Below are positions 26,187 through 43,160 of a stretch of DNA of 64,000 nucleotides, piece after piece. Positions within the stretch are counted from its first letter, which is position 1, and every line of letters begins with the position of its first letter. Position numbers and translations under genes: made by a program. The notes below the pieces were generated by a model. The model saw nothing but the letters and a program-made list of their open reading frames with translations. It had not been told where the DNA came from and searched no databases. This stretch comes from an uncultured virus (IMG/VR IMGVR_UViG_3300035187_003505) (lineage: Duplodnaviria > Heunggongvirae > Uroviricota > Caudoviricetes): the IMG/VR virus record IMGVR_UViG_3300035187_003505. One strand, 5' to 3'.

Positions 26187-28052
26187 TTGAAATCAGTATC
26201 TCCCGAAGCTCCCGATAATTCCGTCGCTATCGGCAATCGTAGCGATGCTGATGGCATGCGTACAGATGGAGCTTTAGTCAATGCCTTTACAGGCATGGGA
26301 ATAGCAGGTAAAGACAGAACCCAATCAACAGGCATACGGACTAGCTATTTACTTTCCCACCCAGAACTTGAAGCTCTTTACTCCGTAGGGCTACCCCGGC
26401 GTTTTGTCGATTCTATTGCCGATGAAGTCCTTAAACATCGTGTCACAATCAAACTAGGAGGCCGGAAAGCTTCCCAAGAGATTGACCAGATCACAGATTT
26501 TGAAGCCTACCTTAAACAGTTAAAATTCCACCGGGTGTATGCCGAAGCTGTCAGGCTCCAGCGCCTTTACGGTGGAGCCGCTATTGTCGCTCTAGTTGAT
26601 GATGGCAACGAAGACCCGGAAACACCTGTAAACTACGACCGCATTCGTGGTATTCGTGGACTGTGTGCGTTGTCGCGCCACGAAATATTCCCCATGGACG
26701 TGTCCGTTATGGACTACTCCAAACCCGAGATGTACAGAATTACTACTAATCAAAAATTAGACGAGAACCAGAAAAGCCCTGTAACAAATATGCGTATCCA
26801 TCACACTAGAGTTAGCCGCTTTGATGGACTATACCTACCCTGGCGACAACGCCAACAACAACAAGGTTGGGGCCAAGCACCATTACAAGTAGTATGGGAT
26901 TCATGGAAACTGTATGAAACGTCCATTAGAGGATTAGCTTCTAGTGTTACAGACTCTTCTTTGTTTTGGCATAAAGTGCCAGGGTTAATGGAGATGGTGA
27001 AAGCCGGTAACGCTAATCAGGTGATGAAACGCATGGAAATAAACAACATGTCTAGATCCTCCTATGGAGGATTCTTAATAGACGCGAATGAAGAGATAGG
27101 CTTTGCTGAAAGATCCCTCAGTAACATGGCGCAAGCCACCGCACCTTTTGCTGAGTACATGCAGGCTACTACTGGTTGGCCTGCGTCAATTCTAATGGGC
27201 ACCAGTCCTGGCGGCCTCGGGAAAGAAGGGCGGTTTGAAGAGCGAGTATGGGCCTCTCTAGTAGAGGACTGGCAGACTGTCTATTGCCAAGACCCTATTT
27301 CCGATATTTTTGAGCTTTTCATGCGGGCCAAGGACAGTCCCATGCGGGGCACCCCACCAGAATCGTGGGAAATTTCGTTCCCCTCGGTGTTCGCGGAAAC
27401 CGATACGGAAAAGCTTGCTGTACAGAAGTCCAGAGCTGAAATAGACAATATTTATGCAGCATTAAGAGTGTTAAGTCCTATAGAAATTAGAAATAATCGC
27501 TACGGCTCAGCGGAATACAGTATTGAGACTGTGCTGGACGAGACCGTATCCGCCCAGTTACAAATGCAAGAGGATAGCATGTTTGAGAACAATATGAATC
27601 AGCTACAAGCACAAGTATTCCAGGCGCAGGGTTTAGGACCAGACGGCCAGCCGATTGCCCCCGAGGGCGGCGAGACCCCTGGCCAGTCTCAACCTGCGTC
27701 TCAAGAGTCTCAACCGGCGAAGCCCGCGCCCAAGACCGACAGCTACGAGGCCCTGGGCCTGACCATCGACGTGCTCAAGCATCAAGACGGCGCCAGCCTG
27801 GGCTATCCGGTGGGGACCACTACCCGGAACGACGCAGCAGGCCCGGATCTTGGCGGCCTGGTGTTGCTCGGGCCCAGCCGATCCCGGCGCTATGCCCTGC
27901 TCAACTCCACCATTAAGCTCGATGGAGTGATCCTCCCTGGCCCGCAGGTTACTGGCTATGCCTCGCTCCGGGCTGCTAGGAAAGGCTTAGCGGCTTTTCT
28001 ACCCCAGCAGACGACCTTCACGCTCAAGCCCGCCCCCGAGGACGTTAAATGA
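26187..28052 (+). CDS. portal protein (DUF1073 type) with C-terminal extension
   Basis: N..TG.G..KD, RLYGGA, IHHTRVSRFDG, WG, L.G.SPGGL motifs; follows terL; start codon uncertain. Confidence 0.92.
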   Translation: MKSVSPEAPDNSVAIGNRSDADGMRTDGALVNAFTGMGIAGKDRTQSTGIRTSYLLSHPELEALYSVGLPRRFVDSIADEVLKHRVTIKLGGRKASQEIDQITDFEAYLKQLKFHRVYAEAVRLQRLYGGAAIVALVDDGNEDPETPVNYDRIRGIRGLCALSRHEIFPMDVSVMDYSKPEMYRITTNQKLDENQKSPVTNMRIHHTRVSRFDGLYLPWRQRQQQQGWGQAPLQVVWDSWKLYETSIRGLASSVTDSSLFWHKVPGLMEMVKAGNANQVMKRMEINNMSRSSYGGFLIDANEEIGFAERSLSNMAQATAPFAEYMQATTGWPASILMGTSPGGLGKEGRFEERVWASLVEDWQTVYCQDPISDIFELFMRAKDSPMRGTPPESWEISFPSVFAETDTEKLAVQKSRAEIDNIYAALRVLSPIEIRNNRYGSAEYSIETVLDETVSAQLQMQEDSMFENNMNQLQAQVFQAQGLGPDGQPIAPEGGETPGQSQPASQESQPAKPAPKTDSYEALGLTIDVLKHQDGASLGYPVGTTTRNDAAGPDLGGLVLLGPSRSRRYALLNSTIKLDGVILPGPQVTGYASLRAARKGLAAFLPQQTTFTLKPAPEDVK

Positions 28053-31015
28053 CCGACATTCGTACGGCTACTTTCCTAGCTATCCAACTGAGGGTGGATG
28101 CTAAACGGAAAACCTCCAATACAATTAAATGTAAACCTCCTAATAAACGATGCGGTCGCAGGTGCATCCCAGCAGAATGGGATTGCAGAATTAAAGGTGA
28201 AGGACATGATACTCATCAACGAGCATCTAACTTTGATCCTTTAAGTGGTGCTGCAAACATACAGCGCGGTACAAAGCGTGTAGCCAAAGGTATTGTCACC
28301 GGAAATGTAGCTGAGGTTGAAGGTGGAACCCGCGCTATCAAACGGGGAATCGTCAAGTCTATTCCAGGTGATGTAGAAAAGAAGAAAAGGGTAAGGGAAA
28401 GTCTAGACAAAAACACTAGGAATCTCACAATTGGACTCGCCTTGGTCACCGGAGGATTTGCACTCCACAATGTGATGAAGAAAGGCTGGCCCGCCTACGC
28501 TAGTGGCCCAGGCCGCGATCTAGATGACTCCATTCGGGTAGGTGTCTCTAGTGTAATGGACCGTGTTCCTGGTATAGGGGGAATCCGTGCAGAACAACGA
28601 CAACAAGCCCAAGGCGCAGGATTGCAAATAGCTAATCGCCTAAACAATATGGCGAATAGAGGACCGGATGCTCTAACACAGCAGCTAGCAGATGTCCCCG
28701 AGACCGTGCGTAATGGAGGTATTGGCCATAATGGTAGAAATAATGTATTAGCCGCACTTAATAGAACGGCGACAGAAGCTAGTACCCAAGGACAATCTTT
28801 TGAAGATTGGCGGCGTAATAGCAGAGAAGCGGTCCTAAACACAACAGTGGCAGGCCGTAGTATATTTGCTGATGATGCTACTTATCAATTCCTATCAAGG
28901 CAGCACGGCCTTGTAGGTCAACGCACAGCAAGTTTAGACAGTGACATAGCTTTTTTACAAAGTCACATGGCTGGCAGCTTAGCTAACCAATCTCAAGCAT
29001 TAAAGCGTGATGCGTTAAATCAAGGTTTCAGTATTCAAGCTACAGGTCGAGATAGTGGGCGCAAGCGTGGAGAAGCACGTACACAATATGTAGATCAAAT
29101 AATAAGACGTGATTTTGCTGGAGCACCTACGCAATTTCAGAATCAAATGCGTGCGCAGCTACGTGATTTGATCAATAAACCAGATGGGCATGATTTTACA
29201 TCCGATGCAGCTAAATTGTACAGAGATACCCGCAGTCAATTCAATCTGCATTTCCGTGCTCTAGCTGATTATGCAGCCGTACCTGCAGGTACACGGACAC
29301 GTCCAGAGCAGCGTAATTTAATAGAACATGTCAATATTGTCCATGCTCAAGTTCTGCATACTAGGCTGCCCGGTGCGTTGAGGGATGTGCAAATTGCAGG
29401 TCCTAGCCACGCAGAGTTCATTCAACAATACAGCTATGATACTAGCGTTATGGGAAATCGCACTTCTTCCCCATCTGCTCGGATGATAAAGGCTGCGGCT
29501 GAGGATATGGCAGGGTATCCGATGACTGGCTTGAACAATGCTCGTGATTACTTGCGGCAACAAGGTTACACCCAACTGAGTACAGTCACACCAACAGCAT
29601 TTCCTAGGAGTCGCCCTCGGGGGGATGTTGCAGATCGTCCGTCCCCTGCCTACATAGCAGCGTATATGGAAACCATGCACCGTTATGATGCAGGTAAAGG
29701 TAAGCCCTGTGGTGAAAGCTACATCCCACAAGCACATAAATGTGGAAAACAATCGGTCGCGACTTCTGCTGGACGAACTGAGACTTTTGCTAATGAGCAC
29801 GATGCACAGTACAAGACCAAGGCTATCGCTAGTTTTTTCGCTCGTGTGGGTATAACTGCAGGTGCAGGGGTTATGGCCTATAAATCCGCACAAGATGTTA
29901 TAGAGGGGAAAAGTATAAATACATTCGCGCCTATGGGCTATGCCTTAATTGCTAGTCTAGGGGTAGCTAGCTTGGTCCGTGAGCAAAAAGTCACCAAAAG
30001 TCCAGAAAGACTAGCTGCAGAATTGCAAGAACTAAAACGGGCTCAAGGCGTAGAGCCGGAAACACTCGATAAACTTAGCAAATTTGTTTTAGATAGCCAG
30101 ATTGATGTTAGACGAGTAGGTACTAAGGAGATTATAGTAGGAATGGCAGGATATTTTGATACGGCTAAACCGGATAGAGTTCATACAGTTGGCGGCTTTG
30201 GTACTCATGATAGAACCTATAAGAGCAAAGATCCTGTGGATGCTATAGACAATGGATTAAGACGGTTCATCGAAGATCGTTCTGCCCTATCTACAGATAA
30301 ACAGGATGCTCGTAACATTACTAATACCCGCGAGTTTAGACGTAATTTCGCTGTTTCTGGGTATATAGGTAATAACAAAGGTGCGGTGACAGCTATTACA
30401 ATCCACGAGCTGGGGCATGCTCTCCACTACAGAGGGGATTTTGCAACACCTAAATCAGTAAGAGTAAACGGTAAAGAGTATTCAGGGGCTGAATTACAAG
30501 CCGAACTTATACGTTCTTCCAGTATTTACGGGCAGAGTGATGTGCGTAGGGCAATCCAACCACAACCGGGCAGTTACTATCAGCAGGGTAATCGACTGGA
30601 GACTTTCACAGAAAATTTTGTGTTGTATGCGGCGAACGGTAAGAATATGAAAGAGGCATTCCCTGTTTCGTACGCTTGGACAAAAGCTACAGTGGATTAC
30701 GCGCTGGCTAAGCCAGCTAAAAAATCAGCACGCCCATTTACAGATGTATTCCGAGATCTAGCAAAAGGTACGGAGCGCTTCAATCCAGATAAAGTCCTAC
30801 CTAAACCTAAAACAAGGGCTAAGGAAGATAGCGCAGAGGACGACCGCTTCTTTGCCTTCTACAAAGAGATGCAGGAAGCCGCGACCTCGGGGGATGTCCT
30901 GAAGTCCATTCAAGTCCTTGCCCGTGCCCAAGTGCTACCTCAAGCACAGAAACAAATGATTGGAGCGTTGATGGAGACAGCGTGCCTTTACCGATCCCTT
31001 CGTGACTTATTATGA
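28049..31015 (+). CDS. putative virion-internal polyprotein: two CG-x3-I-x5-C modules, membrane helices, C-terminal zincin metallopeptidase
   Basis: CGRRCIPAEWDC and CGESYIPQAHKC; IHELGHALH plus downstream S.YG...ETFTENF. Confidence 0.75.
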   Translation: MTDIRTATFLAIQLRVDAKRKTSNTIKCKPPNKRCGRRCIPAEWDCRIKGEGHDTHQRASNFDPLSGAANIQRGTKRVAKGIVTGNVAEVEGGTRAIKRGIVKSIPGDVEKKKRVRESLDKNTRNLTIGLALVTGGFALHNVMKKGWPAYASGPGRDLDDSIRVGVSSVMDRVPGIGGIRAEQRQQAQGAGLQIANRLNNMANRGPDALTQQLADVPETVRNGGIGHNGRNNVLAALNRTATEASTQGQSFEDWRRNSREAVLNTTVAGRSIFADDATYQFLSRQHGLVGQRTASLDSDIAFLQSHMAGSLANQSQALKRDALNQGFSIQATGRDSGRKRGEARTQYVDQIIRRDFAGAPTQFQNQMRAQLRDLINKPDGHDFTSDAAKLYRDTRSQFNLHFRALADYAAVPAGTRTRPEQRNLIEHVNIVHAQVLHTRLPGALRDVQIAGPSHAEFIQQYSYDTSVMGNRTSSPSARMIKAAAEDMAGYPMTGLNNARDYLRQQGYTQLSTVTPTAFPRSRPRGDVADRPSPAYIAAYMETMHRYDAGKGKPCGESYIPQAHKCGKQSVATSAGRTETFANEHDAQYKTKAIASFFARVGITAGAGVMAYKSAQDVIEGKSINTFAPMGYALIASLGVASLVREQKVTKSPERLAAELQELKRAQGVEPETLDKLSKFVLDSQIDVRRVGTKEIIVGMAGYFDTAKPDRVHTVGGFGTHDRTYKSKDPVDAIDNGLRRFIEDRSALSTDKQDARNITNTREFRRNFAVSGYIGNNKGAVTAITIHELGHALHYRGDFATPKSVRVNGKEYSGAELQAELIRSSSIYGQSDVRRAIQPQPGSYYQQGNRLETFTENFVLYAANGKNMKEAFPVSYAWTKATVDYALAKPAKKSARPFTDVFRDLAKGTERFNPDKVLPKPKTRAKEDSAEDDRFFAFYKEMQEAATSGDVLKSIQVLARAQVLPQAQKQMIGALMETACLYRSLRDLL

Positions 31016-31278
31016 ATTTCCCATCAGTACAGATCCGTTGGCCGAAGGCACTGACTACTAGTGTCGTAGCCACAACTATGTTCGGCGTAGCTTTCCTAAT
31101 CCGTTGCGAACATTCCCCAACCCTGCCTGGTGGGTGGCCTAGCTGTTGGATTGTCAGTGGCTCTATTATGGGAGTTCCTTTTATGAAAAGCATGGCTGAG
31201 AAGGCCGGTTTCGTGAATGGGTATAATACTTACAACCCCGCTCTTCGCAAACCTCGTGAGGAGGACGAGGTCACTTAA
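31012..31278 (+). CDS. small two-helix membrane protein (holin-like)
   Basis: Two hydrophobic segments, charged tail, upstream of a peptidase gene. Confidence 0.55.
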   Translation: MNFPSVQIRWPKALTTSVVATTMFGVAFLIRCEHSPTLPGGWPSCWIVSGSIMGVPFMKSMAEKAGFVNGYNTYNPALRKPREEDEVT

Positions 31279-31328
31279 TCACACATCCACCTTTCCCTCT
31301 TTCTCTCTCTCTATCCTTAATTATTGTC

Positions 31329-31907
31329 ATGATCATCAGTCAAGAGTGGAAAACAACAGTCCACGCACTCAACCTCTCCCAGCCTGACGCTTCTACCTGC
31401 CAATCCGCCTGCATTGCAATGGCGGTAGGTGATAAAGACGTGCTAGGGGTTCGTCGAAAGTTGAATCGTCTGCCTGGTGCGGCGGGGGATACTACTAACA
31501 TGGGCAAAGTAATTCGTGGCTATATCGGTGACCGATATATCTACAACAACACCGCTTCGCTCAACGACATTGTTGGTTATCTAAAAGCTGGTGAGTTTCT
31601 CATCACTCACGGCTATTTCACCGGATCCGGGCATGTTATCGCTCTTGATGGTGTAAAACTTAAAAAGGATGCCACTTACTCCTTTAACGTAAAAGATCCT
31701 TGGTCGGAGTTCGACGGCCCTAGCTGGACCTATAACAATCCCAAGTCCACATTCTATGACGGGTTCTACTCCGATAAAATCATCTACGCGGCCTGCGTAC
31801 CCAGCGAGAGTGTTTGGGATGCTGCTCAGTGGTACGATAGCCGCCCTGATTACAACCTAAAGAAAGCCTGGGTGCATAGAATCTTGCCGGCTGTGCCTCA
31901 ACGGTAA
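31329..31907 (+). CDS. C39-like (papain-fold) peptidase, possible endolysin
   Basis: Q....TCQSACIAM (Cys), GHVIAL (His), V.DPW (Asp). Confidence 0.8.
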   Translation: MIISQEWKTTVHALNLSQPDASTCQSACIAMAVGDKDVLGVRRKLNRLPGAAGDTTNMGKVIRGYIGDRYIYNNTASLNDIVGYLKAGEFLITHGYFTGSGHVIALDGVKLKKDATYSFNVKDPWSEFDGPSWTYNNPKSTFYDGFYSDKIIYAACVPSESVWDAAQWYDSRPDYNLKKAWVHRILPAVPQR

Positions 31908-31939
31908 CCTGAGGGGGAGAATCCCTATCTACCCAGGCC

Positions 31940-32830
31940 ATGCCGATCCCCGCAGCATTCCTTAAAAAGGGTCGTAAAAAGCCTGCCGAAGGTAGTGCTG
32001 CGGAGGAAGGAATGGAGTCTTCGAAGATGGAAAAAGGGGAGTCCCCCGAGTACGGTGATGCCCCCCACGGGAAAGGTAAGAAGCCCTGCGCCGCTTGCAT
32101 GAATAAGGGTAAGAAAAAAGGCTCTTGCGGCTGTGAGGATAAAGCCAAGATGGACCGGGCATTATCCCCGCAGGAATACCTCAGCGCATGTGATTTGGGT
32201 ATTCAGGGTCGCAGCAAAAACTACATCCGATCACGGCTCGATGCTGTAGCAACCATGAATAAAGGTCAGGGCACTAAGTGCGGCAACAGCTACATCGGAA
32301 AAGGGAAGAAGTGCAAATCCGGTGCTGGTGGATTGGCTAGCAGTACGCCCGCGAGTGGGGGTAAGAAGCCAGCGAAGTTTGAGCGTAATATCGCTTTAGG
32401 ATATGCAGGATTAAACGCTATTCAAGCAGCACAAGGACTTGCTTCGGGTAACTACGCAAGAGTCGGGGCCGCCGTAGGTTCGGGAATTGGTAACACACTC
32501 GCTGCCCGTAGCTTCCAGAAAGGTAACCGTGGGGCAGGCTATGGGCATTTCTTAGGTACATCTACTGCATTAGGTATGGCCGGTGCTGCTGGAGGTGCTG
32601 TTGCAGGGAGCCCTGGTACGCGACTTAAGGTCCGCGAATGGGTAAAAGAGGCCAGGGATAATCCCTATCGCGATCTCGGGGTTAAGCGGGGGGCCAGTCC
32701 AGAAGAAGTCAAAAAGGCGTACCGTAAGAAAGCCCAGCAAACTCACCCGGATGCTGGTGGTAGCGCAGAAGCTTTCCGTCGCACGAAGGCGTCATACGAG
32801 AAGATCAATAGCAAGTACAAGAATAAGTAA
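31940..32830 (+). CDS. CG-x3-I-x5-C module protein with Gly/Ala helices and C-terminal J-domain
   Basis: KCGNSYIGKGKKC; NPYRDLGV..GAS.EEVKKAYRKKAQQTHPDAGG with intact HPD. Confidence 0.85.
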   Translation: MPIPAAFLKKGRKKPAEGSAAEEGMESSKMEKGESPEYGDAPHGKGKKPCAACMNKGKKKGSCGCEDKAKMDRALSPQEYLSACDLGIQGRSKNYIRSRLDAVATMNKGQGTKCGNSYIGKGKKCKSGAGGLASSTPASGGKKPAKFERNIALGYAGLNAIQAAQGLASGNYARVGAAVGSGIGNTLAARSFQKGNRGAGYGHFLGTSTALGMAGAAGGAVAGSPGTRLKVREWVKEARDNPYRDLGVKRGASPEEVKKAYRKKAQQTHPDAGGSAEAFRRTKASYEKINSKYKNK

Positions 32831-32831
32831 T

Positions 32832-33677
32832 ATGCCACTTACTGCAGGAAAGCTCCGCCTCGACCTTAAGTGCGGCTCCGGGTATATTGCTCAAAGCAAG
32901 AAATGCCACAAAGAGAGCAGCCCCCCGAGCCCGAAACCCAGTTCCCCAACAGGTCGCAAAGTTGCTATAGGGGCGGCCCTGGCCAGTACCGCCGCTCTCG
33001 GGGCTGGCCTGGCTCTGTCCTCCTCCCGCAAGCAGATCTTCAATGCTCCAGCAGCAGTGCGGCGTGCCGCCCAAAACGGAGTAGCTGAAGTTGTAAATAG
33101 AGCTACATCACCCAAACCTTCAATGAAGTTCTCCTCTGAGGGGACTAGTGAGATGGTGAAAGGCTTAAAGAAGCGGTCTATTCGCCGCAAGTTGGTATTA
33201 ACTATGGAGGCTGCTAGGCGCAAGCAAGAGCCTGGTTATCGCAAACCCCCACTAAAGTTGACTGCTGGAGCAATGCGTGAACCGCGTAAAGGTAAAAAAC
33301 CTAGGTCTTTGCTGCGTACAGCACAGCTAACGATGGAAGCTGCAAGGCGTAAGCAGGAGCCTGGTTATAGAAAGCCTGCTAGGAACTCCAAGCGGAATGA
33401 CAAATCCCCCGCCTGGCAGCGCAAGGAGGGCAAAAACCCCGAGGGCGGCCTTAACGCCGCAGGCATCGCCTCCTACCGCAAGCAGCATCCAGGCTCTAAG
33501 CTCTCCCTCGCGGTAACTACCGACCCATCCAAACTCAAACCCGGATCAGCGAGAGCAGAAAGACGACGGAGGTTCTGTGCCCGCATGTCGGGAATGAAGC
33601 GTAAGCTAACCAGCGCGAAAATCGCCAATAACCCAGATTCACGGATCAACAAGACGTTACGGAAGTGGAACTGCTGA
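32832..33677 (+). CDS. CG-x3-I-x5-C module protein with C-terminal DUF6321-like basic domain
   Basis: ATG 32832; KCGSGYIAQSKKC; AWQRKEGKNPEGGLN...RRRFCARMSGMK...SRINKTLRKWNC. Confidence 0.8.
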   Translation: MPLTAGKLRLDLKCGSGYIAQSKKCHKESSPPSPKPSSPTGRKVAIGAALASTAALGAGLALSSSRKQIFNAPAAVRRAAQNGVAEVVNRATSPKPSMKFSSEGTSEMVKGLKKRSIRRKLVLTMEAARRKQEPGYRKPPLKLTAGAMREPRKGKKPRSLLRTAQLTMEAARRKQEPGYRKPARNSKRNDKSPAWQRKEGKNPEGGLNAAGIASYRKQHPGSKLSLAVTTDPSKLKPGSARAERRRRFCARMSGMKRKLTSAKIANNPDSRINKTLRKWNC

Positions 33678-33691
33678 TCCGCTAATAAGAA

Positions 33692-34333
33692 TCAAACCTT
33701 TGCTAATGTTACCAGTTCCGGCTGGTATTGGTATTTACCATTCCTATCCGCATAAGTAGTTTCACAGGGATCCCCCTCAAAGAAAAGTAGTTGGCAAATA
33801 CCCTCTTCGGCATAAATACGGCAATCGGCACCAGAAGAATTACTGAACTCTAGAGTTAGATGTCCCTCCCATGCAGCCTCTGCTGGCGTGGTATTCACAA
33901 TGATCCCCAACCGAGCATAAGTGCTTTTTCCCAAGCAGATCACAGTGATATTCGGCGGCACCCGTAGTTTCTCCAGCGCTACCCCGAGACCGTAGGTATG
34001 CGCCGGCAGGATGAAGTAGCGACCATCCTCATCCTGATGGAGAAGAGCTGGCTCCAGGTTGGCGGGATTGACCCGCTTGGGGTTCATCACCGTGCCGGGG
34101 ACATGGCGGAAAATCTTAAATTCGGCGGCTGACAACCTAATGTCGTAGCCATAACTACTTGTGCCAAAGCTCAGCACCGGAACCTCGGCTGGCGGCCAAT
34201 CAAGATCCAGGAGCGAGGCACGTTCGCTCTGGAAGCGCTCGGCTACTTTGACCTTCCGCACTAGCTCCTGCTGATAGGGCTCGATCATCCCAGCGGCAGC
34301 TTGCTGCCTTATCCAGATGTCGTTCTTAAGCAC
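33692..34333 (-). CDS. dcd: dCTP deaminase
   Basis: SSYGYD, GKSTYARLG, TPAEAAWEG.LTLE, EGICQ, Y.DR.GKYQ. Confidence 0.95.
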   Translation of the reverse strand: MLKNDIWIRQQAAAGMIEPYQQELVRKVKVAERFQSERASLLDLDWPPAEVPVLSFGTSSYGYDIRLSAAEFKIFRHVPGTVMNPKRVNPANLEPALLHQDEDGRYFILPAHTYGLGVALEKLRVPPNITVICLGKSTYARLGIIVNTTPAEAAWEGHLTLEFSNSSGADCRIYAEEGICQLLFFEGDPCETTYADRNGKYQYQPELVTLAKV

Positions 34334-34667
34334 AAGCTTTTTGGCGAGTAGCTGCTAGCTTACGCCCCCGAGCGCGACGGTTGTGGCGTTTACGTCCAAT
34401 AGTGGGGGAGGCGTTAACAAAGATAGGTAGATAGTTAGGTCTCGTATTGTGATAGACGCGATTCATTGCCGCCTTGGTGCGTTCAGATAATATAGACGCA
34501 AACTGCTTAGAATCGAGCAATATAGTGTCCAGTTTCTCCCTCATGTTAAAGTTCTCTACGATGCGCGTAACCGGCTCATTTAGTAGTTCAAGCATTTCAT
34601 CAGCAGTCATGCCTGTAGTACTGCAAGCAGCATTTTGTATGTTTATCCCTAGGTCGTCCTTAAACAT
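34326..34667 (-). CDS. small protein with capsid-protein-derived segment and Arg-rich C-terminus
   Basis: TADEMLELLNEPVTRIVEN matches MCP TADEVLELLNEPVTRIVEN; 8-bp overlaps with neighbours. Confidence 0.7.
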   Translation of the reverse strand: MFKDDLGINIQNAACSTTGMTADEMLELLNEPVTRIVENFNMREKLDTILLDSKQFASILSERTKAAMNRVYHNTRPNYLPIFVNASPTIGRKRHNRRARGRKLAATRQKACA

Positions 34668-34932
34668 GGCAGTTTGAAAAGTAAGAGCGTGGTTTAACTA
34701 AATTAAATGGCTGATCCGCTACTGGATTAAGCATGTAGAAAGGGTGCCTTACTACACGTAGGATTTGAGGATTGCGGCCATAAATATTGATGAGCTGCTC
34801 TCTAAAAACTAAGATTTGCGTGTTTAGATCCTCTAGACTCAACCCGCCATCGGGTTCATACATAAACAACGCAAGTGCTGTAGTGGTTTGTACTGCTACG
34901 AGGTCTATCATAAGAAGTGATGAGTTATTCAT
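34660..34932 (-). CDS. hypothetical protein
   Basis: 8-bp overlaps within a four-gene minus-strand cassette. Confidence 0.6.
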   Translation of the reverse strand: MNNSSLLMIDLVAVQTTTALALFMYEPDGGLSLEDLNTQILVFREQLINIYGRNPQILRVVRHPFYMLNPVADQPFNLVKPRSYFSNCHV

Positions 34933-35215
34933 AAAAAGCTCTGTGTAGTTCGCACATAGCTACTAACCTCTTCCCCCGAGCACGCCTGCGTCTTCGCTTA
35001 CGCCCGATAGGGAATGACTCCTCCTTAACCCATGAATAAAACAAACCCCGCATAATCTCATCACGCCGCTGTAGCTCTAAGTTCAGCTTACGACTAAAAT
35101 CCACAAAAGGTTTAATGCTCTCGTTCAAAGCAGCACCAAAAGCCCGTAGAGCCTCTTTTAACTGCGCCATATTAGCATTTATCTTGGCCACAAGCTCTTT
35201 ATCCATAAAACCCAA
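34925..35215 (-). CDS. hypothetical protein with Arg-rich C-terminus (start uncertain)
   Basis: PIGRKRRRRRARGKRL shared with 34326..34667. Confidence 0.65.
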   Translation of the reverse strand: MGFMDKELVAKINANMAQLKEALRAFGAALNESIKPFVDFSRKLNLELQRRDEIMRGLFYSWVKEESFPIGRKRRRRRARGKRLVAMCELHRAFYE

Positions 35216-35269
35216 GACAAGTGTCCACGCAGGTGCCTCGCTAGAATAGCATACATACCACCGGTAATC

Positions 35270-36319
35270 ATGCCCATAACCACCGCTTCACTAAGATTCG
35301 ACAAGAAATGCGGTGCGTCAGGCATACCAGACAACAAGAAATGCTCCAAAAAGACCACTGCGCCCAGTTCTAATCCAACAATCACCCCGAGCCTGATCGG
35401 CAAAGTCGCCCTTGGGGCCGGGATCGCAGTCCTAGGCATCTCCGCCGCACGCCGTTTCGCTCGCCGCGACCCCAATTGGCAGGGCTTCACCGCCCCTGGT
35501 GAGGACTGGGATCGAATCGAAGCTGAGGCGCGGAAGCGCGGCAAACAGTGGGATGTCTTTGAAGATAATAAGAAAGCCAACGCAGTTGCATGTGCAGCAT
35601 CCAAGATTGATCACTGGATTAGAGAAGATGACTTTGTTCCGACTCCACGATGTCTAGGGGGCCAAGGTGCTTACGGTAATTATGTTGTCCACCCGTCTAA
35701 TAAATACGGTATAAAATACTTAAAGAACAACGACCTCGGGGCTATACCTAATAAATTCCTGAGCGGCCCCACAGAAAGCTTACTCCCTGAAGGGGAGATA
35801 CTAAGGCACGCTAACATCAATAATGTGCCATCCCCTCAGCTATACAAAGCTACTGACCGGGTATTGGTCATGGAGCACTTGAACAATTATTCCCCTTTAT
35901 CTACGCATGGGGTAAGTTCTAGTATGTTCTCACTTAAATACACCGCACCACTACAGTTAAAACGCCAAATGTTAGACCTCTACCGCTCTTTACACATGAG
36001 TGGTCTCGTACACAACGATGGGCACTTAAAAAATATAATGTTTAACCCAAAAACCAGAAGCCTTAAATTCATCGACTTTGGCCTAGCCGAATTCGCTACA
36101 GAAAATCGAACTAGCGCCCGCGATTTCATCAATGAGCTTACTCAAGTACCACGCCGCGTAGGTTTATCAGAATACGCAATAGAGACATTTGAAAGCCGGT
36201 GGGCTCCTCAGTGGGATCCTATAGAAAACGCGCTGCGTACTTATGAAACCGATCACGTAGACAAAGTTGTAAGAGGTTATTACAGAAGTTTAGAGACCGC
36301 TTTATTAAAAAGCTACTAG
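35270..36319 (+). CDS. CG-x3-I-x5-C module protein with membrane helix and Ser/Thr protein kinase-like domain
   Basis: GQGAYG loop, YGIK, EGEIL, HNDGHLKN, IDFGLA; N-term KCGASGIPDNKKC. Confidence 0.88.
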   Translation: MPITTASLRFDKKCGASGIPDNKKCSKKTTAPSSNPTITPSLIGKVALGAGIAVLGISAARRFARRDPNWQGFTAPGEDWDRIEAEARKRGKQWDVFEDNKKANAVACAASKIDHWIREDDFVPTPRCLGGQGAYGNYVVHPSNKYGIKYLKNNDLGAIPNKFLSGPTESLLPEGEILRHANINNVPSPQLYKATDRVLVMEHLNNYSPLSTHGVSSSMFSLKYTAPLQLKRQMLDLYRSLHMSGLVHNDGHLKNIMFNPKTRSLKFIDFGLAEFATENRTSARDFINELTQVPRRVGLSEYAIETFESRWAPQWDPIENALRTYETDHVDKVVRGYYRSLETALLKSY

Positions 36320-36355: not shown

Positions 36356-37666
36356 ATGAGCCTAGCAACAGCTACCCGCTACGACTTCCTCTCGCTGCCT
36401 ATCGTCGGCTGCAAGATAGACCCGGAGTCGGGCTACCTCCAGGTCCGGGCCCGCACCGCCCGCACCGGCCTTCAAAAATACCGCCGCGCTGACGGCAGGG
36501 TCGAAACTGAGTACCGCCCGGAAGAGGAAGTAGGAAAGCCAGAAACCCTAGCATCCTTCGGGATGAAGCCAGTTACTTGGCATCATCCTCCGCAGCTCCT
36601 TGATGCGGATAATACAAAGATGTATCAAATCGGGCATGCCGGCTCGCATGTCCACTTCAGCGACGGTTTTGTTGAAGTAGCGCTTCTTGTTACTGACCAA
36701 AAATCCATCGACAACATCCAACGTAAGGATTCTCCCGATCACGCTGTAGAAGTCTCCGCCGGCTACCGGGTCGATTATGACCCTACCCCCGGTCAAACAC
36801 CATCAGGCGAGTCCTATGACGGTGTCCAACGCAATATCCGCGTCAACCACATCGCCATTGTCCCTAAAGGACGTGCTGGCCCAGAAGTCAGGTTGCTGTT
36901 AGATCGAATGGATTCTACGGCAGCGGTATCTTTTGATCAAGCACTCCTCGATTCCCCCGAGCCCGTACCCCCCGCGAACCCCGTTATGGCCCGTATCAAT
37001 CTCGATGGAGTCGATGTTGAGGTTGCCCCTGAATATGCTCCGCTGGTGCAAGCCTATGTGAGGGATTCCAGCAAGGCCCTCACTGAACTGCGCACTGCTA
37101 ATTCCACTCTGCAGGAAAAGCTAGATACCCTGCAGAGTGATTTTTCTGACCTGGAAGCTGAAAAGGAGGCTGCCGAGGGTCGCGCCGATGGGCTTCAGGC
37201 CACGATTGATACCGGGGAACCCAGTGAGATTCACCTCGACGAAGACAACATCGACGCGGTTCTCGCTCAGATCCCAGCTTCCCGGTTGGACACCTTGGTA
37301 GCCGCCCGCCTCGACACTCTCCAACTCTTAGCACCCGCCTTTGAAGACGACTTCGTCTTCGACGGCATCGAGGCCGATCAGTTGTACATCCAAGCCTACG
37401 AAAATATTTTCGGTGAAGCCCCAGATGAGGAGATGGAAGTCGCCCAAATGAGGGGCCGGGTTGAGGGGGCCCTGGCCACGCTTGATGCCGAAGATCCCCC
37501 CGAGGCCGAACCAGCTCCCCGAACCGATGCTGCCGATTCCACCGGCAAGCTGCGCACGGCCCTTCGCGGTGTCCAACGGCGCGATGCTGCAGCATCCTCC
37601 GATAGCTACAAGCAGAAAACCAACAATAGTTGGCAGAAACCGCTGACTGCTTCTAAGAGGCGATGA
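36356..37666 (+). CDS. prohead protease/scaffold (DUF2213 type)
   Basis: ARTG.Q.Y, YRPEEEV, PVTWHHP, EVSAGY, Q.NI..NHIAIV..GRAG; coiled-coil C-half. Confidence 0.92.
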   Translation: MSLATATRYDFLSLPIVGCKIDPESGYLQVRARTARTGLQKYRRADGRVETEYRPEEEVGKPETLASFGMKPVTWHHPPQLLDADNTKMYQIGHAGSHVHFSDGFVEVALLVTDQKSIDNIQRKDSPDHAVEVSAGYRVDYDPTPGQTPSGESYDGVQRNIRVNHIAIVPKGRAGPEVRLLLDRMDSTAAVSFDQALLDSPEPVPPANPVMARINLDGVDVEVAPEYAPLVQAYVRDSSKALTELRTANSTLQEKLDTLQSDFSDLEAEKEAAEGRADGLQATIDTGEPSEIHLDEDNIDAVLAQIPASRLDTLVAARLDTLQLLAPAFEDDFVFDGIEADQLYIQAYENIFGEAPDEEMEVAQMRGRVEGALATLDAEDPPEAEPAPRTDAADSTGKLRTALRGVQRRDAAASSDSYKQKTNNSWQKPLTASKRR

Positions 37667-37714: not shown

Positions 37715-38338
37715 ATGCCTGTAACTTTCACCCCAACCACAGTAACCTCCCCTATCGGGGTTCAAGGTTCATACCCCCTGACTTCCGCTGGTGCCCATGA
37801 AGGGATGCTGGCCAATCTCAACTCTTACGACTCTTTCACCGGGATCAATCAGACCAGCGCGGCGCTACCCTTCGGGGCCTTGGTTCAGGTAGACACAGCC
37901 GGCGGTCGAGATGATAACGCCATGACCCTCTCCACCGGGGTCACCGGCAACTTCGGCATCCTGGCGGATTCCTTCACATTCGAAGGGGTCGCCTCCGGCA
38001 ATGCCAGCTACCTATCGACCGGGATCCCAGGGACCAACCTGGCCGCTGATGGCCGCCCTGGCTACCCCAACCGGAAGTCTCTCAATGTCATCCGCCGGGG
38101 CCAAATCTGGGTCTACGTCACCGAGGCCGTGGCCCTGACGGATGCTGTCAGGTTCTGGGATACCGACCACTCCGGCACCGTGGCCGGGGCATTCCTGGGA
38201 AGGTTCTGCAAAACAGCCTCCGGCACCCGGACGACCCTGTTCACCAACGGTGCCCGCTGGATCACCAAGACCACCGGGGCTGGCCTGGCTGTCTTGGAGA
38301 TCGAGATGGCCGCCGCGACCTTCACCGCCGACACCTAA
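37715..38338 (+). CDS. head decoration/cement protein
   Basis: Between protease and MCP; LPFG..V, NVIRRG.IWV, T..AG motifs. Confidence 0.8.
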   Translation: MPVTFTPTTVTSPIGVQGSYPLTSAGAHEGMLANLNSYDSFTGINQTSAALPFGALVQVDTAGGRDDNAMTLSTGVTGNFGILADSFTFEGVASGNASYLSTGIPGTNLAADGRPGYPNRKSLNVIRRGQIWVYVTEAVALTDAVRFWDTDHSGTVAGAFLGRFCKTASGTRTTLFTNGARWITKTTGAGLAVLEIEMAAATFTADT

Positions 38339-38409: not shown

Positions 38410-39324
38410 ATGTCCAACCAACGCCTCGACAACCACGGTTTCTTCCTCGCGAGGGAACTGGAGCATATCATCACTAGGGCTTTTGAAGTCGAGTATGCCG
38501 ACATCAAATACGCTAGTGTACTCCCCATTAACAGTGAGGTGTCTAACGGCAAGGATTCCTACACATATAGAATCTACGACCAAAAAGGCTCCATGCGGCG
38601 AATTGCCGATAAGGCGAAGGATCTCCCCCGCGCTGATGTGTTCCGTAAGGAAGTAACCCACAAGGTTGAATCCTACGGTTCAAGCTTCGGCTACACCGTC
38701 CAGGAGCTGCGGGCTGCGGCTGAAGTGCCCAATACAAACCTGGAGCAACGCCGCGCTAACGCTGTGCGTCGCGTCTATGAAGAAACTATGCAGCGCATTT
38801 CCTACTTCGGAGATCCTGCTGCCGGCCTTCGCGGCTTCTTCAACTCCGATCAACTCGACAAGATCGTACCTGATAAGTGGTTCGACACGTCCGGCATCAC
38901 CGCCGATGAAGTTCTCGAACTCCTCAATGAACCGGTAACCCGGATCGTCGAGAACAGCAACATGAAAGAACAACCAGACACCATGTTGGTTCCGTACAAT
39001 GTGTTCCGAAAGATCTCCACAATGAAGCTCGGGACGGCTTCGGACACCACTGTCATGGAGTTTTTCCTCGATACCAACGAGGTTATTAAGGACATTGAAC
39101 CCATCAATGAGCTTACTGCCTCTAAATCCGGCGGGTTCTTGTCTAAAGACCGGATCATCACCTATGAGCGTAACCCGGACAAGCTGGAGATGCACCTCCC
39201 CCAGCCACTGGAGTTTTTCCCTCCTCAACTCCAGGGCCTGGAATACACCGTGCCTGCGCACGCCCGCCACGGTGGGGTAGCCATCTACTTCCCCCGTTCC
39301 GTCATGGTGATGGAGAAAGCCTGA
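38410..39324 (+). CDS. major capsid protein (DUF2184 type, HK97 fold)
   Basis: FLARELEHI, DLPRAD, GY...ELRAA, YFGD...L.G.FN, GGV.IY.P motifs. Confidence 0.93.
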   Translation: MSNQRLDNHGFFLARELEHIITRAFEVEYADIKYASVLPINSEVSNGKDSYTYRIYDQKGSMRRIADKAKDLPRADVFRKEVTHKVESYGSSFGYTVQELRAAAEVPNTNLEQRRANAVRRVYEETMQRISYFGDPAAGLRGFFNSDQLDKIVPDKWFDTSGITADEVLELLNEPVTRIVENSNMKEQPDTMLVPYNVFRKISTMKLGTASDTTVMEFFLDTNEVIKDIEPINELTASKSGGFLSKDRIITYERNPDKLEMHLPQPLEFFPPQLQGLEYTVPAHARHGGVAIYFPRSVMVMEKA

Positions 39325-40377: not shown

Positions 40378-40704
40378 ATGGCAATTATCAACCCACAACC
40401 CGTAGTCGTCAGCGGCGCAACGTTTGCTAACTTAGGCTTTGATTTAGCTATGAGTACATACGTTAGTGATGGAAGGATGAAACTTGGAGTAAACGCAAGT
40501 TTGTGGCCGTACCGCGATACCGAAACCGGTCCCGAGGTACTGCTGCTACCTCCTGGGTTAAGCAGCTTAACGATACCTCCAATAATTTACCCTGACGCAC
40601 AGCTCGCAGCAGCGACGGGTGATATGCCGATGGCGGAATTTCTTGCAACCTTGGAGTTTATTTCTCAAAGATTGCTTAATAAAAAAGCGGGGATGTCTGA
40701 GTAA
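40378..40704 (+). CDS. hypothetical protein
   Basis: Coupled (TAATG) to the fibre gene. Confidence 0.65.
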   Translation: MAIINPQPVVVSGATFANLGFDLAMSTYVSDGRMKLGVNASLWPYRDTETGPEVLLLPPGLSSLTIPPIIYPDAQLAAATGDMPMAEFLATLEFISQRLLNKKAGMSE

Positions 40705-43160
40705 TGGCTGACATTCGAGCAATAGCGTCTACCGCGTTTGAGTCCCCTCTCACATGGTTTGGCAACGTAGTCCCAGGCCCTAATGACGTTGCATCTTCAA
40801 ACGGGTTTGCGCCGCCAATTAGCACGGCTATCATCGTACAAGCACTAAGCAACGCCGCTGGTGGCGGCGCAGTAGCAGGTGGTTCTTTTCCGTTGCTTAA
40901 TGGTGGCAACGTAACTTTCACAAACGCAAACGGGTTGCTGGGCTCCGCAAACAATCCCGTCGTCACTACAGCGTCATTGGCGTTGGGGCAGTCAGCCAGC
41001 GTTTCGGGACCGTCAGCAAACATCCCAGCAACGGCTGGGATTCTCATAAACCACTCAGGCAGTGGAGTTTTAACCGTAACGTCAAACCTTAATGGCAGCA
41101 CCGGTCAAACATCCACGGGCTTTGGTGTGGTGGCCCTAACTGGGGTCGGAGTGCTTAACACGATAGGAACAGTTACTGGACCTTCCAACGTCGTCGGAAA
41201 CGGCACTGCTGCGGGCGTGTTCGTGTCAGGCAACGGCACCTGGAACCACACCGGCTCTATCGTAGGGGGCACAACCAATACTGGGATTACTGCCGGAGCG
41301 TACATTACTGCGGCTTCAGCTAATGTAACTATCAATGGCAGCGTAACGGGTGGAGCGTCAACAGTATTTTCAAATACTGCGCGATCTCCCGGAGTGGAAA
41401 ATGCGTCATCCTCAACTTTGACCATAAACGGTCAGTGCCAGTCGAGTGCAACTCAGCCGGCGATTGGCCCTGGCTCTATAAATCAAGTCACCCGCCTTTC
41501 GGGTCCATTCCTGACGGGCGCCACTGGCAATATAAATTCTAATCTGGCTGTCAAGTGGGGAGCCACGGCAGGAAACCCAGCATCGTCTATGGAAGTGCCA
41601 AACTTCAACTTCACTACCAAGGTGTCTTGGTACACGGCAAACAATTATCCAGTGGGTGGTTATCCATTGCAATCCAATGTTGTACTGGGGACTGTCTACG
41701 GACCAAACTCTGAATTTACCGGCACGTCCGCCAGGCCAGCAACGGGGTCTGTTGCGTTTGGTGTTGCGGTAGGCCAGGCTACCGGCACTGCAATCCTAGA
41801 CGGAGGTAGTTTACGCGCAGCCTTAGGCATGGGAAGTGCCAATCTGGACACACAATTTGCAGGGATTCCTGCAGCGGTTTGGAGCCATATCACCAGAACT
41901 CTCACCAGTGGTGGCGGTGGAGGAGGTAGTTCTCCAACGGCTGCCGAAATAGCCACTGAAGTGTGGTCTACAGCAACGCGCACACTGACCACCGCGTTCC
42001 CTTCGGTCCCGACTGCTTCTGACATTGCCGTTGCTGTTTGGAGTGCAGCAACTCGAACTATTACCAACACCATTCCCTCTGCTATTGACATTGCGACGGC
42101 TGTATGGGGTGCAGTGACAAGAACCCTTACGAGTAGCAGTGCCCCTACGGCTACAGACGTGGCAACTGCTGTGTGGTCTAACACTGGTCGCACCATCACA
42201 GGTGGCACCGTAAATACCATCTTAGACAAGGCAGGGTATTCACTAACTTCTGCCGAGCGTCAAGCCATCGCCACTGCAGTAGAGCAAAGCATTCTCAATG
42301 AAACCGATGGGCAAGCCATCCTAAATGCAATAGTTGGCGCAATAGGCAATGCAAATGTCGATCAAATTGCTCTAATTGCTGCAATCCGCGCCGACCTGGA
42401 GCGTAGTGGCGGAATGTTGGCCGGTAGGTCCACACTTACCGCCGGAGGCGTGCGTGCGGAGCTGAGCACTGAATTAGCGCGGCTTGATGTTGCTACTTCC
42501 ACCCGGCTGGCCTCTGCCAGCTATTCAGCGGCACCAACAACCGCCGCAATTCGCACTGAGCTGAGTGTCGAACTGGCACGGCTCGACACTCCCGTATCGT
42601 CCAGACTGGCCCCTTCGGGCACCCTGGCTCGCGTTACCCTGACGGACACCACTACAACGCTTACAAGCCAGCCTTCATTCCCTGCTACTTCAGAAATAGC
42701 CTCCGCAGTGTGGAGCACCCCTAGCCGCACTGTAACCGGAGGTAGTGTAGATAAAACCGGATACTCCTTAACCTCTGCTGAGCGTCAAGCTATAGCTACG
42801 GCAGTGGAACAAAGCATCCTAAACGAGAGCGATGGGCAAGCTATATTGAACGCGATCGTCGGAGCTATAGGTAATAGCAGTGTCGATCAAGTCGCTCTAG
42901 TAGCAGCTATCCGTGCAGATATGGAACGTGCGGGAGGTATGCTATCAGGGCGTTCGACACTCACAGCGGCCCAAGTATGGACCCACACCAGTCGTACTAT
43001 CACTGGTGGTACTATTGACAACGCTTCACAAACTACTATAGCGGCTGGGGAAGTTGCTGCAGCAGTACGGGCAGAACTCAATCCAGAACTAGAGCGCTTA
43101 CGCAATTGTAGCACTATGGACACAACCGCAGCCGCATTAGCAAACGCCCTTAAACAGTAA
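40704..43160 (+). CDS. fibre-like structural protein with beta-rich N-half and IA.AVW...TRT repeats
   Basis: Gly/Thr/Ser/Asn-rich; several VW..TRT repeats; internal duplication of about 73 aa. Confidence 0.75.
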   Translation: MADIRAIASTAFESPLTWFGNVVPGPNDVASSNGFAPPISTAIIVQALSNAAGGGAVAGGSFPLLNGGNVTFTNANGLLGSANNPVVTTASLALGQSASVSGPSANIPATAGILINHSGSGVLTVTSNLNGSTGQTSTGFGVVALTGVGVLNTIGTVTGPSNVVGNGTAAGVFVSGNGTWNHTGSIVGGTTNTGITAGAYITAASANVTINGSVTGGASTVFSNTARSPGVENASSSTLTINGQCQSSATQPAIGPGSINQVTRLSGPFLTGATGNINSNLAVKWGATAGNPASSMEVPNFNFTTKVSWYTANNYPVGGYPLQSNVVLGTVYGPNSEFTGTSARPATGSVAFGVAVGQATGTAILDGGSLRAALGMGSANLDTQFAGIPAAVWSHITRTLTSGGGGGGSSPTAAEIATEVWSTATRTLTTAFPSVPTASDIAVAVWSAATRTITNTIPSAIDIATAVWGAVTRTLTSSSAPTATDVATAVWSNTGRTITGGTVNTILDKAGYSLTSAERQAIATAVEQSILNETDGQAILNAIVGAIGNANVDQIALIAAIRADLERSGGMLAGRSTLTAGGVRAELSTELARLDVATSTRLASASYSAAPTTAAIRTELSVELARLDTPVSSRLAPSGTLARVTLTDTTTTLTSQPSFPATSEIASAVWSTPSRTVTGGSVDKTGYSLTSAERQAIATAVEQSILNESDGQAILNAIVGAIGNSSVDQVALVAAIRADMERAGGMLSGRSTLTAAQVWTHTSRTITGGTIDNASQTTIAAGEVAAAVRAELNPELERLRNCSTMDTTAAALANALKQ

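What the first reader, a model, noticed from the sequence alone, without database searches (positions are those of the whole stretch)
28049..36319. Candidate virion-packaged polymorphic effector system: shared RxD / CG-x3-I-x5-C / membrane-helix module with four different cargo domains
Seen: five copies of C-G-x3-I-x5-C, at 28151 (CGRRCIPAEWDC), 29708 (CGESYIPQAHKC), 32279 (CGNSYIGKGKKC), 32871 (CGSGYIAQSKKC) and 35309 (CGASGIPDNKKC). Each is preceded by R-x-D (RVD, RYD, RLD, RLD, RFD) and followed by a Gly/Ala-rich hydrophobic helix. Genes 32832 and 35270 have collinear N-termini (MPLTAGKLRLDLKCG vs MPITTASLRFDKKCG; KVAIGA vs KVALGA). The C-termini are unrelated: zincin protease, J-domain, DUF6321-like domain and protein kinase. 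Established: the slot between portal and prohead protease often holds MuF/gp7 proteins, some carrying polymorphic toxin domains; I see no MuF domain here. Inference: a MuF-independent head-targeting or ejection tag that delivers interchangeable membrane-anchored effectors at infection, for host takeover or anti-defence.
Basis: partly seen in the sequence, partly recalled or inferred. Interest (0 to 1): 0.92.

Follow-up and report, generated by a model that had tools for sequence, protein, structure and literature searches.

The report
Protease-released cargo cassettes in cyanophage heads
An uncultured cyanobacterial virus encodes, among its head genes, swappable enzyme cargoes that each start with a likely cut site for its own head-maturation protease followed by a small, undescribed cysteine hairpin, which points to a reusable way of loading proteins into the particle for delivery into the host.

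Summary
The five C-G-x3-I-x5-C motifs are real (0.27 expected by chance). They lie in four genes between portal and DUF2213 prohead protease of an S-CBS4-like siphophage. The 'module' has three separable parts. R-x-D is most likely the protease cut site: it also marks the scaffold and the capsid and portal N-termini, but not cement or tail proteins. The Edman N-terminus of TLS capsid protein follows K-N-D. The same units follow x-x-N in a Mu-like phage and x-x-E in T4-like phages. The upstream 11-residue leader resembles T4's capsid-targeting sequence in size and position. The cysteine hairpin plus Gly/Ala helix would start the mature protein. The family is large (776 clusters), head-linked in 62 of 66 loci, never fused to MuF, and swaps cargo between near-identical phages. 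DUF6321 is a separate unit, not a hairpin cargo. Packaging, ejection and membrane anchoring are inferred, not shown. The scan noted R-x-D cut sites before on other DNA, but not the hairpin. Verdict: new variant of head-packaged polyvalent effectors.

The parts
26187..28052 (+). Portal (PF06381); R-S-D and R-T-D at residues 18-27 just before the conserved core
   Evidence: N-terminal RxD in 14 of 17 homologues
28049..31015 (+). 988-aa two-unit cargo polyprotein in the slot directly after the portal
28049..28099 (+). Unit 1 leader ending in R-V-D (residues 1-17), predicted propeptide
   Evidence: R14/D16 of alignment A1 invariant in 15 of 15 rows
28130..28186 (+). Four-cysteine hairpin (Cys28, 35, 39, 46)
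28187..29626 (+). All-alpha ~500-aa domain of unknown family, found in the post-portal gene of module-bearing relatives; not MuF
   Evidence: model pLDDT 69; no Foldseek match at E<=1e-3 in PDB or BFVD; no usable Atlas hit
29618..29689 (+). Internal spacer helix flanked by R-G-D and R-Y-D, predicted excised propeptide of unit 2
29708..29977 (+). Unit 2 two-cysteine hairpin and Gly/Ala hydrophobic segment
   Evidence: KD 1.59
30026..30763 (+). Zincin-like metallopeptidase cargo (HELGH at residues 786-790, Glu851); boundaries approximate
31012..31907 (+). Small two-helix membrane protein (holin-like, inferred) and C39-like peptidase, in the place where relatives carry stand-alone MuF
31940..32830 (+). 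296-aa cargo: long leader ending R-L-D (99-101), hairpin 32279-32314, Gly/Ala segments, C-terminal J-domain with HPD
32832..33401 (+). Unit with 11-aa leader ending R-L-D, hairpin 32871-32906, hydrophobic helix 32961-33017, basic helical cargo (42 K+R against 10 D+E), ending in R-N-D
33402..33677 (+). DUF6321 as a separate RxD-delimited unit without hairpin
   Evidence: PF19846; stand-alone gene with the same leader in L006, L007, L009, L012
35270..36319 (+). 349-aa cargo: 11-aa leader ending R-F-D, hairpin 35309-35344, hydrophobic helix 35393-35449, Ser/Thr kinase-like domain
36356..37666 (+). DUF2213 prohead protease fused to scaffold; 10 RxD against 2.8 expected
37715..38338 (+). Cement protein (control: no N-terminal RxD in 0 of 27 homologues)
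38410..39324 (+). Major capsid protein (PF09950) with R-L-D at residues 5-7

Best explanation
These are internal head proteins of an S-CBS4-like cyanobacterial siphophage, built as cassettes: [leader ending R-x-D] + [cysteine hairpin] + [Gly/Ala helix] + [cargo]. Step 1 (inferred from the T4 precedent): the leader or internal spacer helix recruits the precursor into the procapsid. Step 2 (strongly inferred): the DUF2213 protease cuts after the Asp of R-x-D in scaffold, capsid, portal and cargo, removing leaders and splitting polyproteins into single units. Step 3 (follows from step 2): each mature unit starts a few residues before a disulfide-type beta-hairpin. Step 4 (inferred, weakest): the units are ejected with the DNA; hairpin and helix act as a leading or envelope-engaging segment, and kinase, J-domain, zincin or hydrolase then modify host functions early in infection. 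Cassettes are exchanged by recombination (shown by comparison). MuF is not the carrier (shown). My odds: packaged and cut about 0.8; delivered as effectors about 0.6; helix acting as a true membrane anchor about 0.4.
For: Cut site: RxD 260 observed against 78.9 expected in 30 protease-scaffolds (reverse DxR 35); terminase 7/11.0, cement 5/7.7, tape measure 42/39.6. N-terminal RxD in 19 of 21 capsid proteins (read) and 14 of 17 portals, against 0 of 27 cement, 0 of 28 adaptor, 0 of 20 tube and 0 of 5 terminase. The Edman N-terminus of mature TLS capsid protein (PMC11447400, passages) begins right after K-N-D. Swap controls: hairpins follow x-x-N in proteins P0034, P0052, P0056, P0063, P0081, P0108, P0149; the one with context lies beside a Mu-gpI protease (PF10123) whose scaffold has hydrophobic-x-N 10 against 3.2 and no RxD. 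DUF6321 follows x-x-E in 5 of 5 marine T4-like or unannotated records read and R-x-D in 6 of 6 contexts here; T4 gp21 cuts after L/I-x-E (PMC9026906). Coupling: 564 of 635 hairpins have RxD within 30 aa against 7.8% of background windows. Leader: 76 distinct short leaders, mostly M-x-L-T-P-x-x-L-R-x-D. Hairpin: Cys1 and Cys3 both present 153, both absent 461, discordant 0; beta-hairpin in the model. Linkage: 62 of 66 loci; one cluster per genome in 5 of 5 complete records. Cargo: 598 segments in 119 clusters, including kinases, J-domains, LRAT/NlpC-P60, ADP-ribosyltransferases, ART-PolyVal, InPase, NUDIX, histidine phosphatase, CCA/polyA polymerase and alpha/beta hydrolases. These overlap the virion-delivered polyvalent repertoire (PMC5512222).
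Against: No virion proteomics exists in what I could see, and no cultured phage gave a hit to the 988-aa N-half or to the modules. About 65 of 94 representatives have no recognisable enzyme domain; many cargoes are basic, low-complexity helices. No positive-inside bias (2.2 before, 2.4 after, p 0.18). RxD also occurs inside folded cargo (zincin 795-797) and between helix and kinase (65-67, 118-120), so the motif alone is not sufficient and the kinase might be cut from its helix. The TLS paper itself states that 45 residues are removed, which conflicts with its own Edman read (27 by sequence). Pam3 capsid protein has T-G-D instead, so the P3 residue is clade-specific. The Mu-like context rests on one contig. 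In L257 the cargo gene lies after tail-region genes. Twelve of 42 related slots have no module, so it is dispensable. Counts are of related sequences and are not independent.
Confidence: 0.62

Rival explanations
1. The proteins are packaged and cut but are core or ballast components: basic helices condense DNA or help build the prohead at a membrane, and they are not delivered as effectors.
For: Many cargoes are K/R-rich without enzyme domains; T4 internal proteins IPII/IPIII have unresolved or assembly roles.
Against: Kinase, J-domain, ADP-ribosyltransferase, NUDIX and hydrolase cargoes keep catalytic motifs and need host substrates; cargo turns over between near-identical phages; 12 of 42 related slots have no module.
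Confidence: 0.15
2. They are late-expressed membrane proteins (signal-anchor type) that act in the already infected cell, for example on lysis, superinfection or prohead tethering, and are not packaged.
For: Gly/Ala helices flanked by basic residues; a holin-like/C39 pair sits in the same cluster here.
Against: Does not explain why the residue before each hairpin tracks the head protease family, nor polyproteins with up to 7 units, nor one copy fused to the protease itself (L258).
Confidence: 0.12
3. The disulfide hairpin docks the proteins on the outside of the head or neck as accessory proteins.
For: Paired cysteines suit an oxidising setting; a similar cysteine pattern occurs in a small lipoprotein-like ORF (L259:1892-2164).
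Against: Externally added cement, adaptor and tube proteins lack RxD while these carry it; ATP- and DnaK-dependent cargoes are useless outside a cell (established knowledge).
Confidence: 0.05
4. One reading: R-x-D, hairpin and helix are one uncleaved targeting tag.
For: Spacing of two residues between RxD and CG in 65 of 128 motifs.
Against: Spacing runs from 2 to 24; RxD plus leader occurs without hairpin (DUF6321 genes) and hairpin without RxD; TLS Edman data.
Confidence: 0.06

Closest known systems
T4 internal proteins (IPI-III, Alt) with the 10-residue capsid targeting sequence cut by gp21 (PMC9026906, passages read)
   Same: Short shared N-terminal leader ending in the maturation-protease motif on unrelated, variable head proteins; a kinase or ADP-ribosyltransferase payload fits host takeover.
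   Different: Siphophage with DUF2213 protease and Asp motif; a second shared element (cysteine hairpin plus helix) stays on the mature protein; units are chained into polyproteins.
Phage polyvalent proteins (Iyer et al. 2017, PMC5512222, passages read)
   Same: Multi-domain effectors encoded among late/virion genes; zincin, kinase, ART-PolyVal and InPase domains; cassette-like variation.
   Different: Units are delimited by prohead-protease sites and a repeated hairpin rather than embedded peptidases or MuF; the words cysteine, Cys, DUF2213 and J domain do not occur in its main text (supplements not seen).
MuF polymorphic toxins (Jamet et al. 2017, PMC5576092, abstract and section 5 read)
   Same: Same genomic slot after the portal; variable C-terminal enzymes.
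   Different: No MuF domain in the cargo; MuF is a separate gene or lost; no small immunity gene pattern; several cargo genes per phage; not clearly temperate.
T1-like (TLS) DUF2213 protease-scaffold and capsid processing (PMC11447400, passages read)
   Same: Same protease family and capsid family; mature capsid begins after K-N-D.
   Different: TLS has only MuF in the slot and no cargo cassettes.
Giant phage SPN3US/phiKZ head ejection proteins cut at A-x-E (PMC10052503, passages read)
   Same: Short protease motif marks propeptides on capsid, portal and internal proteins.
   Different: Unrelated phage group and motif; here a 70-75 kb genome with mobile enzyme cassettes.

Membership tests
MuF polymorphic toxins | N-terminal MuF domain fused to the effector | tested here: not met
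   No PF04233 in the four proteins or 94 relatives; a clade-specific MuF profile finds nothing in the window. MuF3/MuF4 profiles were not available.
MuF polymorphic toxins | Located directly downstream of the portal gene | tested here: met
   28049 overlaps the portal stop
MuF polymorphic toxins | Small downstream immunity ORF | tested here: not met
   Only the 988-aa gene is followed by a small ORF (88 aa, membrane type, kept when the cargo is swapped); the others are followed by cargo, dCTP deaminase or protease
[quoted passage not shown]
   PF00589 absent from G002, G005, G007; partial hits in G004, G006; related units on Thermosynechococcus MAG contigs
Phage polyvalent proteins | Two or more disparate effector domains per polypeptide | tested here: met
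   P0034, P0060, P0069, P0061, L253; in the window only the 988-aa and 281-aa proteins have two units
Phage polyvalent proteins | Encoded among virion/late genes | tested here: met
   62 of 66 loci; 5 of 5 whole records
Phage polyvalent proteins | Packaged and injected with the DNA | not testable with these tools
   No proteomics; no cultured member found
T4-type CTS internal proteins (works-like, not homologous) | Short shared leader ending in the maturation-protease motif | tested here: met
   76 distinct leaders ending R-x-D; same motif on capsid, portal, scaffold
T4-type CTS internal proteins (works-like, not homologous) | Leader sufficient to package a foreign protein | not testable with these tools
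   Needs a reporter fusion
T4-type CTS internal proteins (works-like, not homologous) | gp21 protease and L/I-x-E site | tested here: not met
   Protease is PF09979; motif is R-x-D
Any described cysteine-rich domain | Match of the hairpin to a curated family or solved structure | tested here: not met
   Best Pfam E 0.15 for the window piece and one sub-cutoff EGF_MSP1 hit; no PHROG matched by more than 2 of 61 members; PDB best E 0.09, to Gly/Ala-rich stretches only

The most novel reading that the evidence does not exclude
The cysteine hairpin, with its optional Gly/Ala helix, is a portable virion-to-cell delivery signal. It is unmasked only when the maturation protease removes the leader, it works with unrelated head systems (DUF2213/Asp and Mu-gpI/Asn), and it leads each cargo through the tail and into the host envelope. 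This would amount to a two-signal (load, then deliver) phage secretion code, with the conserved all-alpha first unit as part of the conduit.
Probability: 0.3. Interest if true: 0.88.

Novelty: new variant of a known kind. Interest (0 to 1): 0.72.

Why it matters
How small tailed phages choose which proteins to pack and eject is known for few cases (T4 CTS, MuF fusions). This gives an explicit, testable grammar (leader, cut site, hairpin, helix, cargo) across hundreds of protein clusters from aquatic viral contigs. It exposes a catalogue of candidate pre-emptive effectors against cyanobacteria, including a virion-borne J-domain and kinases, and offers a short tag that could be tested for loading reporters into capsids. 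It also adds direct literature support and two swap controls for the Asp specificity of the little-studied DUF2213 proteases.

Tried and rejected
Complex prediction of the module with the scaffold domain: no answer (score 0.15, mark 0.32); not evidence either way. RNA runs: no RNA holder listed. Fold and Atlas searches for the 988-aa N-half found no family. The module model is low confidence outside the hairpin (mean pLDDT 60) and was not fold-searched. Positive-inside test: no bias. Cultured phages: no hit for the N-half; only J-domain hits for two module proteins; S-CBS4 and Pra-JY27 regions hold no hairpin. More Asn-clade loci: the viral scan gave 2 stretches, one being a lipoprotein-like look-alike; the metagenome scan gave 9 stretches, 2 from the same contig as L258 and 7 with no motif in a credible ORF; the protease search returned only that contig. 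Genome scan: 12 stretches, 3 loci on two Thermosynechococcus MAG contigs real, one 1-kb contig not examined, the rest look like chance. Rejected: divergent MuF as identity of the first unit, because 26 of 30 module-bearing slots carry a separate true MuF. Rejected: a four-cysteine zinc site as the general form, because 461 of 614 motifs lack both Cys1 and Cys3 and the Cys3 position is often G, A, Y, F or S (His in 109, so metal binding in some is not excluded). Pam3 and Pa193 structure papers gave no cleavage data. No whole genome is held for the window, so absence of MuF outside the 64 kb rests on relatives. One row (L009:4980-5210, spans a stop) was left out of alignment A2.
Full report
Observation. 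The pattern C-G-x3-I-x5-C occurs five times in the six frames of the window, at exactly the stated positions, against a shuffle mean of 0.27. The five copies lie in four + strand genes (28049-31015, 31940-32830, 32832-33677, 35270-36319) between a PF06381 portal and a DUF2213 prohead protease-scaffold, followed by cement and PF09950 capsid genes. Downstream genes are siphovirus-type. The nearest cultured phage by protease is Synechococcus phage S-CBS4 (36.5%), so the host is probably a cyanobacterium (inference). Kinase, J-domain and DUF6321 are confirmed by Pfam. The zincin rests on motifs and weaker hits. The hydrophobic helix is clear after three copies, weak after 32279 and absent within 80 residues of 28151.

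The family. A protease-based search gave 78 loci. Across the 88 loci then held, 168 ORFs carried the motif, all on the + (protease or query) strand, collapsing to 94 representatives. Of the 66 new loci with long flanks (53 contigs by my count), 62 had every match downstream of the portal and/or upstream of the protease, none contradicted this, and 4 short ones had neither gene but did have MuF. In 5 of 5 complete records all matches (5-9 each) formed one cluster. A profile of 61 modules hit 776 clusters at 50% identity, with polyproteins up to 2,677 aa and 7 units. From 342 non-redundant proteins, 598 cargo segments fell into 119 clusters. Pfam named 15 kinases, 6 J-domains, 3 LRAT/NlpC-P60, 2 DUF6321 and 1 ADP-ribosyltransferase among the 94 representatives, plus two weak hits; about 65 had no informative hit. 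A further 82 proteins chosen for diversity added ART-PolyVal, InPase, CCA/polyA polymerase, HD, NUDIX, histidine phosphatase, PARP-like, HipA/PI3K-like kinase and lipase-like domains. Cargo is polymorphic on a short time scale. Phages 96-99% identical to the window in portal, protease, capsid protein, C39 peptidase and kinase carry a post-portal gene only 30% identical over its first half, with a lipase-like second unit (nucleophile-elbow motif, my reading) in place of the zincin, a different C-terminus on the 31940 homologue, and in L003/L007 an extra kinase unit.

R-x-D is a protease site, not part of a cargo tag. It occurs 10 times in the window's protease-scaffold (2.8 expected) and at the N-termini of capsid and portal. 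In 30 related protease-scaffolds it is 260 against 78.9, while terminase, cement and tail proteins are at or below expectation, apart from one repeat-rich protein (40704, 11 against 2.0 in 2 sequences). N-terminal RxD is found in 19 of 21 capsid proteins (read) and 14 of 17 portals, but in 0 of 27 cement, 0 of 28 adaptor, 0 of 20 tube and 0 of 5 terminase homologues. This is the split expected between procapsid residents and parts added later (established knowledge). Direct support comes from coliphage TLS, whose protease and capsid protein belong to the same families by annotation and by the T1-like hits. The Edman read of its mature capsid protein (PMC11447400, passages) starts immediately after K-N-D, and its protease is rich in K-x-D. 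That paper's own figure of 45 removed residues disagrees with its Edman read. Two natural swaps agree. First, 71 of 635 hairpins lack an upstream RxD, and a set of these follow x-x-N; the one with context lies beside, and is also fused to, a Mu-gpI protease whose scaffold has hydrophobic-x-N 10 against 3.2 and no RxD. This rests on one contig. Second, DUF6321 follows R-x-D in 6 of 6 contexts here but x-x-E in four T4-like cyanophages and one unannotated marine record, and stands free in Pra-JY27; T4 gp21 cuts after L/I-x-E (PMC9026906). I formed the cleavage idea; two earlier scan notes reached the same reading on other genomes and pointed me to TLS.

The three parts are separable. The leader (76 distinct versions, mostly M-x-L-T-P-x-x-L-R-x-D) also heads stand-alone DUF6321 genes that have no hairpin, so it is independent of the hairpin and matches T4's 10-residue capsid targeting sequence in length and position. 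The hairpin has two forms: Cys1 and Cys3 are both present in 153 and both absent in 461 of 614 motifs, never one alone. This suggests Cys1-Cys3 and Cys2-Cys4 disulfides, though Cys2 and Cys4 were fixed by my pattern and the sequences are related. It is modelled as a beta-hairpin and matches no Pfam, NCBIfam, PHROG or PDB family. The helix follows 67 of 91 two-Cys motifs at KD 1.2 or more against 16 of 442 control windows, but is rare in the Asn clade and has no charge asymmetry, so membrane anchoring and topology remain open.

MuF. But 26 of 30 module-bearing slots carry a stand-alone ~290-aa MuF after the first cargo gene. The window's subclade lost it: none in G002, G003, G004, present in G005, G006. 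A holin-like/C39 pair occupies its place in the window. Modules persisting after MuF loss argues for MuF-independent loading. The first unit is all-alpha and has no known fold match.

Mechanism. Shown: architecture, head linkage, cassette exchange, independence from MuF fusion. Strongly inferred: cleavage after R-x-D by the phage's protease, hence residence in the procapsid. Inferred by precedent: leader-based loading, and ejection with the DNA as for T4 IP/Alt and polyvalent proteins. Speculative: the hairpin and helix lead the cargo or insert it in the envelope. Against: no proteomics or cultured member, many cargoes without enzyme domains, RxD sites between the kinase and its helix, one displaced locus (L257), and dispensability in 12 of 42 slots.

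Comparison and novelty. It works like T4 CTS internal proteins combined with polyvalent effectors. It is not a MuF toxin system. Ten full-text searches turned up no description of the hairpin cassette or of a DUF2213 cleavage rule; none searched the motif string itself, the library lacks most subscription papers, and I did not see the supplements of PMC5512222 or PMC5576092, where such a domain could be listed. Papers seen: passages of PMC11447400, PMC9026906, PMC10052503, PMC5512222, PMC9942802, PMC11456595; abstract and section 5 of PMC5576092; others as listings only. I rate it a new variant of a known kind, interest 0.72.

Noticed in passing
e.g. L021:6287-7693, L139:9569-10651, L146:236-1003: A second mobile tag, R-x-D then S-x-[W/Y]-A-x-G-F, ends 76 of 342 module proteins; possibly a C-terminal propeptide. 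Absent from the window's four proteins.
   Followed up: partly
window 34326-34667 (-): Small gene holding a ~55-aa stretch 54% identical to the capsid protein; an earlier scan note describes the same in another genome.
   Followed up: no
window 33692-35215 (-): Four opposite-strand genes, including dCTP deaminase, interrupt the head operon; two small ones share an Arg-rich C-terminal stretch.
   Followed up: no
window 31012-31907: Holin-like gene and C39-like peptidase occupy the MuF position in this subclade.
   Followed up: partly
window 31940-32155: The long leader of the J-domain gene has a Lys/Cys-rich stretch with several cysteines, conserved in relatives.
   Followed up: no
L013:3818-5536: MuF protein interrupted by an intein-like insertion.
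   Followed up: no
L258:7172-12244 (-): Mu-like head module on a 105-kb contig with Asn-delimited cargo polyproteins and a hairpin unit fused in front of the protease domain.
   Followed up: partly
L259:1892-2164: Small lipoprotein-like ORF with an eight-cysteine pattern that contains the hairpin; possible origin of the motif. That such proteins are widespread is recalled, not tested.
   Followed up: no
L042, L046, L049, L054 portal C-termini: Module-free relatives have portals with a basic C-terminal extension and small DUF5872/DUF3721 genes in the slot.
   Followed up: no
L253/L254:6730-9438 (-), L257:8711-10675: Thermosynechococcus MAG contigs carry hairpin-LRAT-hairpin-J-domain polyproteins; in L257 the gene lies after tail-region genes.
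   Followed up: partly
window 40704-43160: 818-aa repeat-rich protein after the adaptor gene has 4 RxD against 0.7 expected, within repeats.
   Followed up: no
window 46823-52417: Tape measure protein contains an internal metallo-endopeptidase/endolysin-like domain.
   Followed up: no
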